Origin: a virus
Lineage: Duplodnaviria > Heunggongvirae > Uroviricota > Caudoviricetes
Direction: 5' to 3' (one strand)
Length of the DNA: 4,367 bases
Virus record (IMG/VR): IMGVR_UViG_2711768068_000016
Coordinates: 1-4,367 of that record
Below the pieces are notes generated by a model. That model was not told the origin of the DNA and ran no database searches. It saw only the letters and a program-made list of their open reading frames with translations. A program made the position numbers and the translations under genes. Below, one piece after another: positions 1 to 4,224 of the stretch. The number at the start of each line of letters is the position of its first letter. Position 1 is the stretch's first letter.

Positions 1-1761
1 TTCGTTACGCCGCTTTTTGTTATCCCACAGCAGACGCATCTTTCCTTTTTCCCACTTCTCCACAAGCTCTTCCGCGACCAGTTGCTGCGCCTCTGTCTGC
101 GAAAAAATCTCCGGATCATCAGGAAAACGGATGGCATACGACGTGGCTTCATCCGCAGGAGTGGGATCGGCTTTCATACGGGCATAGAGAATTTCTTTTG
201 CGGTGTCCGTCCCCACTTCACACAGATACACGCCCCGCTGATTGCGGGTTTTCGGCATGGTGATCACCGGCTTGCCATAGACAGATGCGCCTTTTACCGG
301 CAGCACCCGGAAAACACCGTGTTTTTTTGACCTCTGATAGACAATTTCACCATCGATCCCCCCGGTGTCCCAGCAGACACGGGAAATGGTCATTTCGGTT
401 CCGTCTGCATGGCAGTATTTTTTGTTGATCGCCGCATCCACACGTAACAGCGTCTCTTCCTCATCGGGACGGCCCATAATGATGATTTTATCCACCAGAA
501 AGGCTTCCTCTCCCGGTGCCCATCCCCAGACATACATCTCAAAACGGTTTCGCTGCGAGTCAATGCCCGCCGTCAGATAAACCACCCGGGCAGGCACCGC
601 CGCCGTGTAACGCACCACCTTATCCATCAGTACCTGGTGATCGAGTTTTTCGCCCACGGCCTCTTCCCAGGTCTCGCCCAGCGTGGTGTTCACAAAGGTT
701 TTCAGGCCGTTGGGATCTTTCAGTGCATCCAGCCAGTCATAGACTATCTGTATCCAGGTGGTGAACGGACTGTACGCCGTCCAGATATGGAACGTGATGG
801 AGCGCGGCGGCGGAATTTCATCCCCCCGGGCGCTGAAAAACATCAGGCCGTCACGGGTCCACATACCCGTGTTTTCACAGATCCAGCGCCCGTTACTCTG
901 GTCAAGCTCAGACTGATGGATCACGCAGCCATGATGTTCACAGAGGTAGAAAACGCTTTCGGGGCTGTCCTTCTCCCATTTAAGGCCAAAAGGCGTGGAT
1001 TCATCGCCAAATTTCAGATACTGCGCCTCCTCACAGTGCGGGCAGGGCACATAGAAACGCATGAAATGCGCCGACTCGTTGGCCGCTTTTTCGATCTGGC
1101 AGGTACCTTTGATTTTAGGCGTCGAGCCGCGAATGGATTTTGGCCATACAGAGCCCTCAATACGCTTATCCCCCAGCAGGGTTGGCGAGCCCTCTTTTTC
1201 GACATCCGGCTCGAACGAGGAAAGCTCGTCATAGCAGACCACGTCCACGGATTTTTCACGGTAGTTTTTGGCGGCTGCACCGCCCAGGCACCAGAAACCG
1301 ACGCCCGATGAAAAGCGTTTCAGCGTGAGAGTATTGTCACGATGTTTACGACCCAGCCATGGGGAAAGGTCTTTCAGGCATGGCACGTTCCGAATCGTCG
1401 CCTCCACGTGAGACTTCATAAAATCTTCAGCGGCAGAATCCGTGGGCTGAAAAAGCAGACTGTTTCGGGATTTATGCTCAATAAAATACCCGGCGACTCC
1501 CAGCAACATCTTTGTATAGCCAACACGGGCAGATTTAATCAGATTAACAGTGCGGATCTGATCATTCCCCATACTGTTCATGATGGCGATCTGGAACGGC
1601 AGCGTTTTCCATTCTCCCTCACCATATGAGGATTCTTTCGGCAGATAATAATACTGGTCAGCCCATTCAACTGCCGTCATCGGTACAACCCTGACCAGAG
1701 GCTGCAGCGCAACCGAAACGGCGGCCACCATATTATTCAGTTGTTGCTCTGATATATTCAT
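1..1761 (-). CDS. A: Phage terminase large subunit (lambda gpA-like), N-terminal ~587 codons; C-terminus lies beyond window position 1
   Basis: The minus-strand frame is open from ATG 1761-1759 to the window edge with no stop; the ORF track lists no closed ORF here, consistent with the stop lying outside the window. By-eye translation starts MNISEQQLNNMVAAVSVALQPLVRVVPMTAVEWADQYYYLPKESSYGEGEWKTLPFQIAIMNSMGNDQIRTVNLIKSARVGYTKMLLGV and ends LVEKWEKGKMRLLWDNKKRRNE at position 1. This is colinear with my recollection of lambda gpA (MNISNSQVNRLRHF...TAVEWADANYYLPKESAYQEGRWETLPFQRAIMNAMG...KSARVGYSKMLLGV...KKRRNEALDCF). Walker-A-like KSARVGYT and Walker-B-like VVCYDE motifs are present. Plus-strand ORFs at 82-1629 are antisense shadows of this gene. 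Confidence 0.93.
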   Translation of the reverse strand, partial: MNISEQQLNNMVAAVSVALQPLVRVVPMTAVEWADQYYYLPKESSYGEGEWKTLPFQIAIMNSMGNDQIRTVNLIKSARVGYTKMLLGVAGYFIEHKSRNSLLFQPTDSAAEDFMKSHVEATIRNVPCLKDLSPWLGRKHRDNTLTLKRFSSGVGFWCLGGAAAKNYREKSVDVVCYDELSSFEPDVEKEGSPTLLGDKRIEGSVWPKSIRGSTPKIKGTCQIEKAANESAHFMRFYVPCPHCEEAQYLKFGDESTPFGLKWEKDSPESVFYLCEHHGCVIHQSELDQSNGRWICENTGMWTRDGLMFFSARGDEIPPPRSITFHIWTAYSPFTTWIQIVYDWLDALKDPNGLKTFVNTTLGETWEEAVGEKLDHQVLMDKVVRYTAAVPARVVYLTAGIDSQRNRFEMYVWGWAPGEEAFLVDKIIIMGRPDEEETLLRVDAAINKKYCHADGTEMTISRVCWDTGGIDGEIVYQRSKKHGVFRVLPVKGASVYGKPVITMPKTRNQRGVYLCEVGTDTAKEILYARMKADPTPADEATSYAIRFPDDPEIFSQTEAQQLVAEELVEKWEKGKMRLLWDNKKRRNE

Positions 1762-2239
1762 CCAGCAAATCCGGTAATTTATCCCCTGCCCGCGCACACT
1801 GATTTGCGCCCTTTGCAATAAGGGTTTTCAGATGGTCAATATGACGTGGCGTTAAATCCGGGAACTGTCGCTGCATGGATAACGGAATGGAATCAAGCGT
1901 ACTGGACAATGCCATCGCCAGTTTGCTGAGGGCGAAAACGCAGAAGTCTGAATCGATGAGCTTACCTTCGGTTACCTGATTTTTAAGTTTTTGAGCTACA
2001 GCCTGTTCTTCTGTCAGTTCAGCTCTGGCCCGAAGCAGCCTTTCCTCCAGTTCTCCCCCGTCATCAGGTGTTCTCTGATTGTGTTGTCGCCGCTCGCGAT
2101 CTATCTCCAGTACAGTTTTAACGTCATATAAAACTTCCCTCCCCCGACGTTCAACAGGAGGAACGCCCCATTTATCAAATGCCTGAACAGAGATACCGAT
2201 GGAGGAGGCCATATCACTTTTATTCAATAAAAAGGCCAT
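1733..2239 (-). CDS. nu1: Phage terminase small subunit (lambda Nu1-like DNA-packaging protein)
   Basis: Track ORF 1733-2344 (minus) translates to ...GREVLYD...AVAQKLKNQ...DFCVFALSKLAMALSSTLDSIPLSMQRQFPDLTPRHIDHLKTLIAKG...DLLDEYIRATTE, matching recalled lambda Nu1 (NEVLYD...AQELKN...AFCTFVLSRIAGEIASILDGLPLSVQRRFPELENRHVDFLKRDIIKA...GLLSEYIEQSG). Start placed at ATG 2239-2237 (MAFLLNKSDMASSIG...) because GGAGAGGAG lies immediately upstream and it aligns with the lambda N-terminus MEVNKKQLADIFG. In-frame ATGs at 2257 and 2344 are alternatives, but the 2344 extension would read through the cosB repeats. Stop TAA at 1735-1733. Confidence 0.88.
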   Translation of the reverse strand: MAFLLNKSDMASSIGISVQAFDKWGVPPVERRGREVLYDVKTVLEIDRERRQHNQRTPDDGGELEERLLRARAELTEEQAVAQKLKNQVTEGKLIDSDFCVFALSKLAMALSSTLDSIPLSMQRQFPDLTPRHIDHLKTLIAKGANQCARAGDKLPDLLDEYIRATTE

Positions 2240-2271
2240 CTCCTCTCCATAAGTCATCGATAAAAAGCGAA

Positions 2272-2280
2272 ACAACAACC
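2272..2280 (+). repeat. cosB R-like element copy 1 (ACAACAACC), nearest the Nu1 start
   Basis: Exact 9-mer; extended match AAACAACAACC at 2270-2280, shared with copy 3. Confidence 0.55.
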
Positions 2281-2349
2281 ATGTGTTTTTGCAAAACCAT
2301 TTGATATCATTGATATTTTTCGCATTGACGACATCAAAACACATCGTAA

Positions 2350-2358
2350 GGTTGTTGT
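2350..2358 (-). repeat. cosB R-like element copy 2 (GGTTGTTGT on plus strand, i.e. ACAACAACC inverted)
   Basis: Exact reverse complement of the 9-mer, lying between the two direct copies. Confidence 0.55.
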
Positions 2359-2408
2359 ATTTATTTTATTTTCACCTTACTTATCAATTAGATATACCAA
2401 ACAATTAA

Positions 2409-2417
2409 ACAACAACC
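2409..2417 (+). repeat. cosB R-like element copy 3 (ACAACAACC), nearest cosN
   Basis: Exact 9-mer; extended match AAACAACAACC at 2407-2417. It lies about 40 nt from cosN, comparable to lambda R3. Confidence 0.55.
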
Positions 2418-2455
2418 ACCCCCTCAAAAAATCTCATAAATAGTGAAAACGCGCG

Positions 2456-2467
2456 AGGTCGCCGCCC
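2456..2467. other. cosN core: 12-nt cohesive-end sequence AGGTCGCCGCCC (reverse complement of the lambda left-end overhang GGGCGGCGACCT)
   Basis: Exact 12-mer seen in sequence. The flank toward Nu1 (rev-comp CGCGCGTTTTCACTATTTATGAGATTTTTT) closely resembles the recalled lambda left end (CGCGGGTTTTCGCTATTTATGAAAATTTT). The flank on the other side (2468-2660, cgtaaccggtcggatcgccggaaaggacccg...) closely resembles the recalled lambda right end (CGTAACCTGTCGGATCACCGGAAAGGACCCG...). The site lies at the expected position immediately upstream of Nu1. Confidence 0.85.
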
Positions 2468-2660
2468 CGTAACCGGTCGGATCGCCGGAAAGGACCCGCA
2501 AAATGATAATAATTATCATCTACATGTCACAACGTGCATCTACGCCATCAAACCACGTCAAATAATCAATTATGACGCAGGTATCGTATTAATTGATCTG
2601 CATCAAATTAACGTAAAAGCAACTTCAGATAATACAAATCAGCAACACTGAATATGGGGC
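2468..2660. other. Lambda right-end-like non-coding DNA adjacent to cosN (expected to contain cosQ)
   Basis: By recollection, about 90 percent nucleotide identity to the lambda right-terminal about 200 bp (…GATAATGATTATCATCTACATATCACAACGTGCG…CAAATAATCAATTATGACGCAGGTATCGTATTAATTGATCTGCATCAACTTAACG…). No ORF present. Confidence 0.7.
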
Positions 2661-2666
2661 AACATT

Positions 2667-2891
2667 ATGTCATCAAAGAACAGAACCCGCAGAACAACAA
2701 CCCGCAACATCCGATTTCCAAACCAGATGATTGAACAAATTAACATCGCTCTTGATCTGAAAGGTTCAGGAAATTTTTCAGCGTGGGTTATTGAAGCCTG
2801 CAGAAGAAGATTAATTAATGAAAAATATTCTCAATTTGTACCCAACAAAGACAAACACGACCAGAGCACCTGTTCAGACAGGTTTACTTAA
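2667..2891 (+). CDS. ylcI: Small DUF3950 / YlcI-YnfO family protein (lambda orf-64 homolog), putative ribbon-helix-helix DNA-binding protein
   Basis: 74-aa ORF MSSKNRTRRTTTRNIRFPNQMIEQINIALDLKGSGNFSAWVIEACRRRL... The first ~50 residues are nearly identical to the recalled lambda right-end ORF / E. coli YlcI (MSTKNRTRRTTTRNIRFPNQMIEQINIALEQKGSGNFSAWVIEACRRRL...). The pattern, a short beta-strand followed by two helices, is RHH-like. Stop TAA at 2889-2891. Confidence 0.8.
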   Translation: MSSKNRTRRTTTRNIRFPNQMIEQINIALDLKGSGNFSAWVIEACRRRLINEKYSQFVPNKDKHDQSTCSDRFT

Positions 2892-2908
2892 ACGACTTAT
2901 ATATGACA

Positions 2909-2937
2909 CAAAAAGCGACCACTAAAGTCGCTTTTTC
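2909..2937. terminator. Putative bidirectional Rho-independent terminator between the convergent ylcI-like and PerC-like genes
   Basis: Hairpin AAAAAGCGAC-cactaaa-GTCGCTTTTT: GC core stem GCGAC/GTCGC at 2915-2919 and 2927-2931, A-tract 2910-2914 on one side and T-tract 2932-2936 on the other, so it reads as stem plus U-tract in both directions. It sits 18 nt after the plus-strand gene stop and 36 nt after the minus-strand gene stop. Confidence 0.5.
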
Positions 2938-2972
2938 TTATGGTAACAGGCAATAACGCTCTCAGATATTTT

Positions 2973-3287
2973 TTAGCATTTTTTTGACCGCGCGTTTCCG
3001 GACGTATTCTGTTCTCCTGTCCCTTTATATCGTCGGAATACCCGCCGCTCTTCAAATCCCATTCCCAACTCAGAATGTAGTCTGTTGACCGCTTGTTTTA
3101 TTTCGGTCAGGTTCACCGGTGAAACCGGAGTCCGGCGCGCCTTACGCAAACACTCTGCTCGTTTCTGTGCCGCCACTTTTCTTTTCTGGTCATCACTTAG
3201 CTGTACCATCACTTTTGCCCATCGTTCAGCTGCTCTCCGGTACAGTCCTTTTTTCTCCAGACATTCTGCCAGGTGATCATGTAGCAT
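2973..3287 (-). CDS. PerC-family transcriptional regulator (Pch/YfdN-like prophage moron)
   Basis: 104-aa ORF MLHDHLAECLEKKGLYRRAAERWAKVMVQLSDDQKRKVAAQKRAECLRKARR... carrying the LExKGLYRRAAxRW signature I associate with the PerC family (EPEC PerC, O157 Pch proteins, K-12 YfdN). Good RBS: GGAGG 6 nt upstream of ATG 3287. Stop TAA at 2975-2973. Confidence 0.82.
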   Translation of the reverse strand: MLHDHLAECLEKKGLYRRAAERWAKVMVQLSDDQKRKVAAQKRAECLRKARRTPVSPVNLTEIKQAVNRLHSELGMGFEERRVFRRYKGTGEQNTSGNARSKKC

Positions 3288-3750: not shown

Positions 3751-4224
3751 TCACGGTATACACTGGGTACGGATATATTCCTGTGCTCCTTCCAGTTGCT
3801 TCTGCATTGCCATCAGCCGTTCTCTGAGGATGAAATAATCCCGTTCAGCGGCTTCTGCCAGTCGGGGACCGGTTGCATTATCCACGCCGGAGGTGATGGG
3901 GGCTTTACGCAAGGAGCCTGGACAGTTGGCGTTGATGCGCAGGCGCTTACGACCAGCGGCAACATCAGCACGCAGAGTTTCATTTTCAGCTCTCGCATCG
4001 GCTAATTCCCTCGAGTATCTGGCATCAAGTGCAGCAACATCACGCTGGCGCTGCTGCATATCAGTAATGGTTGCATTTGCCAGCTCCAGCTCACTGACTT
4101 TTTTATCGCGCTGCTCTTTGTAGGTTATGGCGTTATCGCGGTAATGATTCAGCCCCAGACTAAGCGCACCACAGACCACCAGCAGAATAACGGTAAACGC
4201 GGAAAGCATTCGGTTTATGCTCAC
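3751..4224 (-). CDS. rz: Rz i-spanin (inner-membrane spanin subunit), lambda Rz-like
   Basis: 157-aa ORF MSINRMLSAFTVILLVVCGALSLGLNHYRDNAITYKEQRDK...DVAALDARYSRELADARAENETLRADVAAGRKRL...SGVDNATGPRLAEAAERDYFILRERLMAMQKQLEGAQEYIRTQC, colinear with recalled lambda Rz (…AVNHYRDNAITYKAQRDKN…DVAALDAKYTKELADAKAENDALRDDVAAGRRRL…ASGVDNAASPRLADTAERDYFTLRERLITMQKQLEGTQKYINEQCR). N-terminal TM helix present. GTG start at 4224 overlaps the stop of the upstream ORF (GTGA), as ATGA does in lambda R/Rz. Confidence 0.93.
   Translation of the reverse strand: MSINRMLSAFTVILLVVCGALSLGLNHYRDNAITYKEQRDKKVSELELANATITDMQQRQRDVAALDARYSRELADARAENETLRADVAAGRKRLRINANCPGSLRKAPITSGVDNATGPRLAEAAERDYFILRERLMAMQKQLEGAQEYIRTQCIP
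3813..3998 (-). CDS. rz1: Rz1 o-spanin (outer-membrane lipoprotein spanin subunit), embedded out of frame within Rz
   Basis: 61-aa ORF MRELKMKLCVLMLPLVVSACASTPTVQAPCVKPPSPPAWIMQPVPDWQKPLNGIISSSENG: signal peptide with lipobox (VVSAC), proline-rich mature region. Matches recalled lambda Rz1 (MLKLKMMLCVMMLPLVVVGCTSK…CVKPPPPPAWIMQPPPDWQTPLNGIISPSERG). Entirely nested in the Rz gene in a different frame. Confidence 0.9.
   Translation of the reverse strand: MRELKMKLCVLMLPLVVSACASTPTVQAPCVKPPSPPAWIMQPVPDWQKPLNGIISSSENG

What the first reader, a model, noticed from the sequence alone, without database searches (positions are those of the whole stretch)
2180..2344. Nu1 homolog has a diverged N-terminal DNA-binding region and an ambiguous start that interleaves with cosB
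The C-terminal two thirds of the small terminase subunit align well with lambda Nu1, but the N-terminal winged-helix region (MAFLLNKSDMASSIGISVQAFDKWGVPPV versus lambda MEVNKKQLADIFGASIRTIQNWQEQGMPV) is much more divergent, in parallel with the altered cosB repeats. The longest in-frame ORF (start 2344) would translate through two of the repeat copies; the RBS-supported start is ATG 2239. An automatic gene call taking the longest ORF would be wrong here.
Basis: partly seen in the sequence, partly recalled or inferred. Interest (0 to 1): 0.4.

Follow-up and report, generated by a model that had tools for sequence, protein, structure and literature searches.

The report
N15-type small terminase, ordinary start
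This is the start of a lambda-like prophage's small terminase gene, whose DNA-binding head and matching packaging-site repeats are of the already described phage N15/"Monarch" type; the true start is ATG 2239 and the longer reading frame is an annotation trap, so the finding is ordinary.

Summary
On the minus strand the window carries a lambdoid packaging region. It runs cosQ, cosN (GGGCGGCGACCT), a three-part cosB (R3, an IHF-like site, inverted R2, R1), then TerS (2239→1733) and TerL.

- Only this codon has a Shine-Dalgarno sequence.
- Pfam and about 45 homologues align from here.
- A diverged relative loses ATG 2344, breaks the frame, and keeps a start codon at the homologous position.
- RefSeq annotates 168 aa. 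The 203-aa miscall does exist in public databases.

Two details are wrong:
- The N-terminus is not much more diverged from lambda Nu1 than the C-terminus (33–40% against 43% identity). The linker is the poorly conserved part.
- The long ORF crosses one repeat (R1), not two.

The better description is a mosaic. Residues 1–45 are 80% identical to phage N15 gp1, with an identical recognition helix, and the GGTTGTTGTTT repeats match R3 of N15. Residues 76–168 are 89% identical to a Nu1 that carries an unrelated N-terminus.

This combination, N15 specificity with a lambda-style three-part cosB, was described by Feiss et al. (2015) as the "Monarch" prophage group. It is already known and of low interest.

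The parts
2491..2497 (-). cosQ-like heptamer GGGTCCT, 24–30 bp upstream of the top-strand nick
   Evidence: Sequence read. The flanking 134 bp are 90–96% identical to lambda-like phage cos regions. Calling it cosQ rests on its position by analogy with lambda (my own knowledge) and on the statement in PMC4669245 that cosQ is highly conserved.
2456..2467 (-). cosN cohesive-end sequence GGGCGGCGACCT (cos bp 1–12), identical to lambda and phage 21
   Evidence: The phage 21 record annotates the same 12 bases as the cohesive end.
2407..2417 (-). cosB R3 core GGTTGTTGTTT (cos bp 51–61), the N15-type TerS binding site
   Evidence: Exact match. N15 R3 (GAGGTTGTTGTTTAATC, N15 bp 48–60) has the same core one bp nearer to cosN. 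R3 of N15 was defined by scanning mutagenesis (PMC4669245; PMC9026076).
2382..2394 (+). IHF-like site TATCAATTAGATA between R3 and R2 (cos bp 74–86), presumed I1
   Evidence: One mismatch to WATCAANNNNTTR. It has the same cos coordinates (74–86) as the I1 annotated in phage 21. The pattern itself is not enriched in the window (6 found, 5.4 expected), so only the position supports it.
2350..2360 (+). cosB R2 core GGTTGTTGTAT, inverted relative to R3 and R1 (cos bp 108–118)
   Evidence: 1 mismatch, opposite strand. Phage 21 R2 is annotated at bp 107–122 in opposite orientation. Klebsiella and Salmonella relatives have the same position.
2270..2280 (-). cosB R1 core GGTTGTTGTTT (cos bp 188–198), 30 bp upstream of the TerS start
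   Evidence: Exact match. It is conserved in the 82%-identical relative A35 and in Klebsiella and Salmonella loci.
2240..2344 (-). Non-coding 3' part of cosB that happens to be open in the TerS frame (35 codons from ATG 2344); it contains R1 and gives the spurious 203-aa ORF
   Evidence: There is no SD before ATG 2344, and GC is 34% against 47% in the CDS. In strain A35 the ATG is ATC, indels of −10, −1, −1 and +1 break the frame, and an in-frame TGA appears. Klebsiella and Salmonella have an in-frame TGA at −84, and N15 has a TGA 3 codons upstream. Substitutions here show no third-position bias, unlike the CDS.
2240..2248 (-). Shine-Dalgarno sequence GGAGAGGAG of TerS
   Evidence: −7.9 kcal/mol. 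A GGAGG-like SD sits at the same place in A35, Klebsiella, Salmonella, Hafnia and N15.
1733..2239 (-). TerS (Nu1 family) coding sequence, 168 aa plus stop
   Evidence: PF07471 at 77 bits, with profile position 4 falling on residue 6. It is identical to RefSeq WP_001405844.1 as annotated by PGAP. Homologues are 166–169 aa and all begin M-x-x-L-L-N-K.
2072..2239 (-). N-terminal winged helix-turn-helix DNA-binding domain (residues 1–56), N15 type; recognition helix SVQAFDKW
   Evidence: The AlphaFold model has pLDDT 83–88 over residues 1–50, with elements E4-6, H7-14, H18-24, E30-32, E35-39, H40-56. The best PDB matches are TerS DNA-binding domains 7lwr, 7lw0 and 6hn7_B (TM 0.77, rmsd 1.6 Å) and 1j9i (lambda gpNu1), at probability 0.99–1.00. 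It is 35/44 identical to N15 gp1.
1..1761 (-). TerL (gpA family), N-terminal 586 aa; overlaps the TerS 3' end by 29 nt and runs off the window
   Evidence: GpA_ATPase and GpA_nuclease domains. PGAP places the start 478 nt after the TerS start. It is 92–93% identical in DNA to phage 21 gene 2 from window ~1612 downward.

Best explanation
The finding sits on the junction between the packaging site and the small terminase gene of a lambda-like prophage of Escherichia coli.

Shown:
- Reading the minus strand, the order is cosQ, cosN, then a three-part cosB: R3, an IHF-like site, an inverted R2 and R1. A strong Shine-Dalgarno sequence and ATG 2239 follow.
- ATG 2239 opens a 168-aa Nu1-family TerS whose 3' end overlaps TerL.
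- The 105 nt upstream (2344–2240) are non-coding cosB DNA that happens to stay open in frame. The 203-aa ORF is therefore a gene-calling artefact.
- The protein is a mosaic. Its N-terminal winged-helix domain (about residues 1–50) is the phage N15 type, and the three cosB repeats match N15's R3. Its C-terminal oligomerisation and TerL-binding part belongs to a different lineage, shared with PhiR12_1 and distantly with lambda and 21.

Inferred from the lambda and N15 literature:
- Dimeric TerS wHTH domains bind R3 and the inverted R2 across an IHF-induced bend.
- This anchors TerL to nick cosN, about 50 bp away.
- R1 is an accessory site.

This is the 'Monarch-group' arrangement already described by Feiss and co-workers: N15 packaging specificity with a lambda-style complex cosB.
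For: Start codon:
- Only ATG 2239 has an SD.
- The Pfam Nu1 profile aligns from residue 6.
- 45 or more homologues of 166–169 aa share the N-terminus MAxLLNKSDMA.
- In the 82%-identical relative A35, ATG 2344 is lost and the frame is broken, while the homologous start (GTG) and its SD persist.
- In-frame stops lie at −84 in Klebsiella and Salmonella and at −9 in N15.
- Substitutions are biased to the third position in the CDS (for example 3/3/29) but not in the extension.
- PGAP aa in six of seven loci examined.

Specificity module:
- Residues 1–45 are 35/44 identical to N15, against 17/43 to lambda, 11/43 to 21 and 8/41 to PhiR12_1.
- Residues 76–168 are 83/93 identical to PhiR12_1, against 38/93 to N15 (Fisher p = 2e-5 and 3e-15).
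- The sliding DNA identity shows the same breakpoints.

Repeats and cosB layout:
- 4 matches against 0.14 expected.
- R3 lies at cos bp 51–61, against N15 R3 at 48–60.
- R2 is inverted, at the same position as phage 21 R2, and the IHF-like site has the same coordinates as 21's I1.
- No rR2 copy lies inside the gene.

Fold: wHTH, with the best matches to TerS DNA-binding domains including lambda gpNu1 1j9i.

Literature: PMC4669245 describes the Monarch group with exactly these features, and functional lambda–N15 chimeric TerS proteins.
Against: - There is no experimental datum for this particular element. DNA binding, IHF bending and the translation start are all inferred.
- The Monarch sequence itself was not available for a direct comparison (ref. 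58, PMC4461450, is not held).
- The IHF consensus match is no better than chance on sequence alone.
- The R2–R1 spacing is 80 bp, against about 43 bp in phage 21, so the higher-order geometry may differ from lambda's.
- PGAP chose Met10 in one relative, and a 159-aa form is in RefSeq. Automated evidence is therefore not unanimous on Met1 against Met10.
- Sequence-only matches to solved TerS DNA-binding domains are marginal (E 0.2–0.6).
Confidence: 0.9

Rival explanations
1. The 203-aa ORF from ATG 2344 is the real TerS. It would carry a 35-residue N-terminal extension encoded across cosB R1.
For: It is the longest ORF and starts with ATG. It stays open in seven closely related E. coli loci. 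The 203-aa form is deposited in NCBI, ENA and Logan records on hundreds of contigs.
Against: - It has no SD (+1.6 kcal/mol) and lies in AT-rich sequence.
- ATG 2344 is lost and the frame broken in strain A35.
- In-frame stops occur in the Klebsiella, Salmonella, Hafnia, Pantoea and N15 relatives.
- Amino-acid change is faster here than in the CDS, with no third-position bias.
- Pfam and structural homology start at residue 36–41 of this form.
- PGAP never uses it in the loci examined.
Confidence: 0.03
2. Translation starts at Met10 (ATG 2212), giving a 159-aa protein, as PGAP annotates in one O103:H2 strain and as deposited for E. albertii 'gp1'.
For: PGAP call in L009. The 159-aa sequence is in RefSeq as WP_000168519.1. 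Met10 is invariant in the family.
Against: - It has no SD (−1.6 kcal/mol).
- Residues 5–9 (LNKSD) are ≥90% conserved in 45 or more homologues and align with lambda Nu1 residues 3–7.
- The predicted strand 4–6 and the beginning of helix 7–14 would be lost.
- Six of seven PGAP calls use Met1.
Confidence: 0.05
3. The N-terminal domain reached its present form by gradual divergence in place from a lambda-like Nu1, co-evolving with its cosB repeats, rather than by acquisition of an N15-type module.
For: All these DNA-binding domains share one fold and ultimately one ancestor.
Against: - There is a sharp identity discontinuity inside one gene: 80% to N15 in residues 1–45 but 41% in residues 76–168, and the reverse pattern against PhiR12_1.
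- The same DNA-binding domain, ≥90% conserved, is joined to several different C-terminal lineages in Klebsiella, Salmonella, Hafnia, Pantoea and Enterobacter.
Confidence: 0.07

Closest known systems
'Monarch'-group prophages (Feiss et al. 2015, Virology 482:260; PLoS One 10:e0141934 = PMC4669245)
   Same: All of the following were found here:
- an N15-type TerS recognition helix;
- R sites matching R3 of N15;
- a lambda-style three-part cosB (R3, IHF site, inverted R2, R1);
- no rR2 inside the gene.
   Different: Monarch's own sequence could not be retrieved, so identity to it is untested. The papers' text does not give the R2–R1 spacing, which is 80 bp here.
Phage N15 gp1 (TerS) and cosB-N15
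   Same: - Residues 1–45 are 80% identical, including an identical helix GISVQAFDKW.
- The same GGTTGTTGTTT R3 core lies at nearly the same distance from cosN.
- The length is the same (168 aa), and so are the SD and start arrangement.
   Different: - N15 has a single R3 plus a remote inverted rR2 inside gene 1, with its start at bp 89. Here there are three R sites, an IHF-like site, no rR2, and a start at bp 229.
- The C-terminal two thirds are only 41% identical.
- N15's cohesive end differs from lambda's at two positions, whereas here it is identical to lambda's (PMC4669245).
Phage lambda gpNu1 and cosB-lambda (PDB 1J9I)
   Same: - Same Pfam family and the same wHTH fold.
- Same cos layout (R3-I1-R2-R1, then SD and start).
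- Same cohesive end, and a TerS/TerL gene overlap.
   Different: - Overall identity is 36%, and the recognition helix is SVQAFDKW against SIRTIQNW.
- The wing region is 3–5 residues shorter.
- The R sequences are unrelated (GGTTGTTGTTT against lambda's CGTTTCCGTTCT region).
- The start lies at bp 229 against 191.
Phage 21 gp1 and cosB-21
   Same: R3, I1 and R2 occupy the same cos coordinates (50–65, 74–86, 107–122). TerL is 92–93% identical in DNA over most of its length.
   Different: TerS is only 30% identical, the R sequences differ, and R1 lies at bp 150–166 in phage 21 against 188–198 here.
Escherichia phage PhiR12_1 Nu1 (XSB41620.1)
   Same: Residues 76–168 are 89% identical and the TerL beyond is 90–100% identical. 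This is the same TerS C-terminal/TerL lineage.
   Different: The N-terminal domain is unrelated (MATQTEVARHLSLTDRQLRRLQKLPGAP). Its cosB carries different repeats (CCGGACATG, three copies).
Engineered lambda-N15 hy4 chimeric terminase (PMC4669245)
   Same: [quoted passage not shown] This is an experimental analogue of the natural mosaic seen here.
   Different: It is a laboratory construct with the simple N15 cosB and a lambda C-terminal part.

Membership tests
Lambda-like TerS (Pfam PF07471, Phage_Nu1) | Profile match above the curated gathering score | tested here: met
   77.2 bits against a cut-off of 30; residues 6–149 match profile positions 4–163.
Lambda-like TerS (Pfam PF07471, Phage_Nu1) | N-terminal winged helix-turn-helix DNA-binding domain of the gpNu1/MerR-like type | tested here: met
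   Predicted model with pLDDT about 85 over residues 1–50. Top PDB matches are TerS DNA-binding domains 7lwr, 7lw0, 6hn7_B and 1j9i, with TM 0.65–0.77 and probability ≥0.99. This is a prediction, not a solved structure.
Lambda-like TerS (Pfam PF07471, Phage_Nu1) | Gene lies immediately downstream of cos and overlaps a gpA-family TerL gene | tested here: met
   cosN at 2456–2467, TerS at 2239–1733, TerL ATG at 1761 with GpA_ATPase and GpA_nuclease domains.
N15 packaging-specificity group | Recognition helix identical or near-identical to TerS-N15 | tested here: met
   GISVQAFDKW is identical in the window and N15. Residues 1–29 are 26/29 identical.
N15 packaging-specificity group | R3 matching R3-N15 at about cos bp 48–60 | tested here: met
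   GGTTGTTGTTTAAT lies at cos bp 51–64, against N15 bp 50–63.
N15 packaging-specificity group | TerS actually binds these sites and packages N15-specific DNA | not testable with these tools
   This needs EMSA, footprinting or helper-packaging assays.
Monarch subgroup (complex cosB with N15 specificity) | Three R sequences, with R2 inverted relative to R3 and R1 | tested here: met
   R3 at 2407–2417 (−), R2 at 2350–2360 (+), R1 at 2270–2280 (−); 0 of 200 shuffles reach this count.
Monarch subgroup (complex cosB with N15 specificity) | [quoted passage not shown] | tested here: inconclusive
   TATCAATTAGATA has 1 mismatch to the consensus and lies at the same coordinates as phage 21 I1. The consensus is no more frequent than chance in the window, and binding was not tested.
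Monarch subgroup (complex cosB with N15 specificity) | Absence of the remote rR2 site inside the TerS gene | tested here: met
   There is no R-core match at ≤1 mismatch within 1733–2239. The position equivalent to N15 rR2 reads CAACACAATCAGAG. For contrast, a Pantoea relative has rR2 at +159.
Monarch subgroup (complex cosB with N15 specificity) | Sequence similarity to the Monarch prophage itself | not testable with these tools
   No Monarch sequence or accession appears in the held papers.

The most novel reading that the evidence does not exclude
Two features of the Monarch-type leader might be functional rather than incidental.

1. An mRNA hairpin pairs the Shine-Dalgarno sequence and ATG 2239 with codons 10–13 (AUGGCCUCCUCC). 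Its MFE is −22.3 kcal/mol with z = −2.3, and it is partly kept in relatives. It could throttle TerS translation.

2. The 80-bp R2–R1 spacer is conserved in E. coli, Klebsiella and Salmonella, against about 43 bp in phage 21, and contains a second IHF-like site. It could imply a cosB nucleoprotein geometry different from lambda's.

Neither is excluded, and neither is well supported.
Probability: 0.1. Interest if true: 0.3.

Novelty: already known. Interest (0 to 1): 0.12.

Why it matters
It matters little for biology. The window is another copy of a described packaging-specificity class, present in about 246 of 5,426 complete E. coli genomes.

There are two practical points:
- Three different N-termini for this one protein circulate in public databases: 203, 168 and 159 aa. 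Anyone modelling or expressing this TerS should use the 168-aa form.
- The locus is a clean natural example of modular exchange. A cosB-plus-DNA-binding-domain cassette moves independently of the TerL-binding half of TerS, which fits the engineered lambda/21/N15 chimeras in the literature.

Tried and rejected
- **Fold search with the full-length model.** It gave only weak, helix-dominated hits; the best were MerR-like CbpM, NmlR and SoxR at E 0.05–1.7. I replaced it with a model of residues 1–62 alone.
- **Sequence search against solved structures.** It found lambda-type TerS DNA-binding domains only at E 0.2–0.6, too weak to use alone.
- **The primary Virology 2015 paper defining Monarch** (PMC4461450) is not held, and the PLoS One paper gives no accession.
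- **IHF consensus scan.** It found 6 sites against 5.4 expected, so I used only the positional coincidence with phage 21 I1.
- **A fourth R-like copy at 2692–2702.** It lies 225 bp upstream of cosN inside the DUF3950 ORF. I considered it as an R4 analogue, but it has 1 mismatch, its location differs from lambda's R4 as I remember it, and I did not check its conservation. I do not claim it.
- **SD-sequestering hairpin.** The consensus fold over 7 relatives has a covariation term of only −0.51, so it is not claimed as a structure.
- **Promoter and terminator scan of 2150–3000.** It found nothing above chance.
- **ATG 2257 (174-aa form).** It has no SD, the exact sequence is absent from 15 billion proteins, and the codon is not conserved as a start in Klebsiella or Salmonella. 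Rejected.

Full report
**What is in the window**

Read on the minus strand, the 4.4-kb window is the lysis-to-packaging junction of a lambda-like prophage.
- Rz/Rz1 lies at 3751–4224.
- A PerC-family ORF lies at 2973–3287.
- A DUF3950 (YlcI/YnfO) ORF lies on the other strand at 2667–2891.
- The cos site follows, then a Nu1-family small terminase (TerS) and a gpA-family large terminase (TerL) that runs off the end.
- The cohesive-end sequence GGGCGGCGACCT is at 2467–2456 and is identical to that of lambda and phage 21. GGGTCCT lies 24–30 bp upstream, where lambda's cosQ is.
- The nearest complete phages are the PhiR12 series and phage 21, but only for TerL and the lysis genes.
- The cosB-plus-TerS segment is found at ≥80% coverage in 246 of 5,426 complete E. 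coli genomes.

**Checking the observation**

The coordinates and sequences are correct.
- A 203-aa ORF opens at ATG 2344.
- An in-frame ATG at 2239 is preceded by GGAGAGGAG (2248–2240).
- Both quoted peptides match the translation and lambda Nu1.

Two statements do not hold.

First, against lambda Nu1 the N-terminus is not much more diverged than the C-terminus.
- Residues 1–29 are 9/27 identical and residues 1–45 are 17/43 identical.
- Residues 76–168 are 40/92 identical. Fisher p = 0.38 and 0.71.
- BLASTP aligns residues 5–163 in one piece at 36%.
- The poorly conserved part is the linker, residues 46–75 (4/29).

Second, the long ORF crosses one repeat, not two.
- The R cores lie at 2407–2417 (R3), 2350–2360 (R2, opposite strand) and 2270–2280 (R1).
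- ATG 2344 lies 3' of R2.

**The start codon**

Every line of evidence I could compute points to ATG 2239.
- **Ribosome binding.** Only this codon has anti-SD complementarity: −7.9 kcal/mol, against +1.6 for 2344, +1.5 for 2257 and −1.6 for 2212.
- **Family profile.** The Pfam Nu1 profile begins (position 4) at residue 6 of the 168-aa form.
- **Homologues.** Some 45 full-length homologues from Escherichia, Salmonella, Klebsiella, Hafnia, Pantoea, Enterobacter and others are 166–169 aa. They share the N-terminus M-x-x-L-L-N-K-S-D-M-A.
- **Strain A35.** In an 82%-identical relative, ATG 2344 is ATC. Indels of −10, −1, −1 and +1 break the frame and an in-frame TGA appears. The R cores, the SD (GGAGGGG) and a start codon (GTG) at the homologous position are kept.
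- **More distant relatives.** Klebsiella and Salmonella have an in-frame TGA at −84, Hafnia at −6, Pantoea at −12 and N15 at −9.
- **Substitution pattern.** Among close relatives the CDS shows third-position bias (3/3/29, 1/0/10, 0/0/4). The 105-nt extension does not (2/1/1, 2/2/5, 1/1/0) and changes amino acids faster.
- **Composition.** GC is 34% in the extension against 47% in the CDS.
- **Existing annotation.** RefSeq/PGAP calls the 168-aa protein (WP_001405844.1 and relatives) in six of seven loci and Met10 in one.
- **Public databases.** The exact 203-aa sequence and near-identical 203-aa entries (for example AKA91169.1 and EFI90075.1, on 372 contigs) exist beside the 168-aa form (≥1000 contigs) and a 159-aa form.

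**What the N-terminus really is**

It is not a drifted lambda domain. It is the phage N15 type.
- Residues 1–45 are 35/44 identical to N15 gp1, and the helix GISVQAFDKW is identical.
- Residues 76–168 are only 38/93 identical to N15.
- Those same residues are 83/93 identical to PhiR12_1 Nu1, whose N-terminus is unrelated at 8/41 (Fisher p = 2e-5 and 3e-15).
- Sliding DNA identity shows the same breakpoints. It also shows a third switch, to phage-21-like sequence, a little inside TerL.
- A model of residues 1–62 (pLDDT about 85 over residues 1–50) has the β-α-α-wing-α layout.
- Its best PDB matches are TerS DNA-binding domains: 7lwr, 7lw0, 6hn7_B (TM 0.77, 1.6 Å) and lambda gpNu1 1j9i. MerR-like wHTH proteins follow.

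**The repeats**

GGTTGTTGTTT occurs four times at ≤1 mismatch, against 0.14 expected.
- R3 sits at cos bp 51–61. N15's experimentally defined R3 (bp 48–60) has the same core one base closer to cosN.
- R2 is inverted at bp 108–118, where phage 21's R2 is annotated.
- An IHF-like sequence occupies bp 74–86, exactly the coordinates of 21's I1. The consensus match alone is no better than chance.
- R1 is at bp 188–198, 30 bp before the start.
- No rR2 copy lies in the gene.
- The same R3/R2/R1 offsets recur in Klebsiella and Salmonella prophages. A Pantoea relative instead has the simple N15 layout, with R3 at −39 and rR2 at +159.

**Comparison with what is known**

Feiss et al. (PMC4669245) describe two subgroups of N15-specificity phages.
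- One is N15 and relatives, with a single R3 plus rR2.
- The other is a group 'exemplified by Monarch'. It has identical recognition helices and matching R3, but a lambda-like three-part cosB with an IHF site and no rR2.

Every listed feature that I could test is met here. IHF binding and direct identity to Monarch could not be tested.

The same paper shows that chimeric TerS proteins, with the N15 cosB and 5' gene end on a lambda backbone, are functional. A natural mosaic is therefore unsurprising.

**Mechanism**

This is inferred from lambda and N15 work, not shown here.
- Dimeric wHTH domains of TerS dock on R3 and the inverted R2 across an IHF bend.
- This positions TerL to nick cosN.
- R1 is accessory.
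- The TerS C-terminal part pairs with its cognate TerL N-terminus. This is consistent with that segment travelling with the TerL 5' end in the mosaic.

**Verdict**

The finding is real but ordinary. It is a known specificity class, correctly annotated in RefSeq, with one quantitative claim and one detail wrong. Residual curiosities are noted but weak: an SD-sequestering hairpin, the long R2–R1 spacer, and a fourth R-like copy.

Noticed in passing
window 2190–2262 (− strand): A predicted mRNA hairpin pairs the TerS Shine-Dalgarno sequence and start codon with codons 10–13 (AUGGCCUCCUCC). MFE is −22.3 kcal/mol with z = −2.3, and 1 of 200 shuffles folds as well. A consensus fold over 7 relatives keeps 15 pairs, but the covariation term is only −0.51. 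It could attenuate TerS translation, or it could be a by-product of the Ala-Ser-Ser codons.
   Followed up: partly
window 2270–2360; L012, L013, L008: The R2-to-R1 spacing is 80 bp here and in Klebsiella and Salmonella relatives, and 68 bp in E. coli A35, against about 43 bp in phage 21. A second IHF-like sequence, TATCAAATGGTTT, lies in this spacer at 2294–2306, but it is poorly conserved in the Klebsiella and Salmonella loci by eye.
   Followed up: partly
window 2692–2702 (− strand): A fourth R-like core, GGTTGTTGTTC (1 mismatch), lies 225 bp upstream of cosN, inside the DUF3950/YlcI-family ORF on the other strand. I did not check whether it is conserved.
   Followed up: no
L001 (PhiR12_1) 2500–2625 and 2665–2750: PhiR12_1 shares the TerS C-terminal half and TerL with the window. 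Its N-terminal domain is different (MATQTEVARHLSLTDRQLRRLQKLPGAP), and its cosB has three copies of CCGGACATG / CATGTCCGG. These resemble, but differ by one base from, phage 21's CCGACATG repeats. This may be a further packaging specificity. The same domain type appears in 'prophage Qin Nu1-like' proteins (P0060).
   Followed up: partly
window 1–1761 vs phage 21 and PhiR12_1: There is a mosaic breakpoint inside TerL. The first 70–500 bp of TerL, together with the TerS 3' half, follow PhiR12_1 (86–100% identity per 60-bp bin). Phage 21 reaches ≥95% only from about cos bp 1200. This is consistent with the TerS C-terminus and TerL N-terminus being inherited as an interacting pair.
   Followed up: partly
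L009 (E. coli O103:H2) 858–1337; protein cluster: PGAP annotates the same gene from Met10 (159–160 aa) in one strain, although the upstream ATG and SD are intact. The 90%-identity cluster holding the 203-aa form also contains proteins named Ail/Lom outer-membrane protein. This looks like a clustering or naming artefact.
   Followed up: no
window 2667–2891 (+), 2973–3287 (−): Between Rz and cos lie a DUF3950/YlcI-YnfO family ORF (E 1.8e-18) and a PerC-family transcriptional activator homologue (E 5e-44). These are accessory ('moron'-like) genes in the position where lambda carries bor and neighbouring small genes.
   Followed up: no
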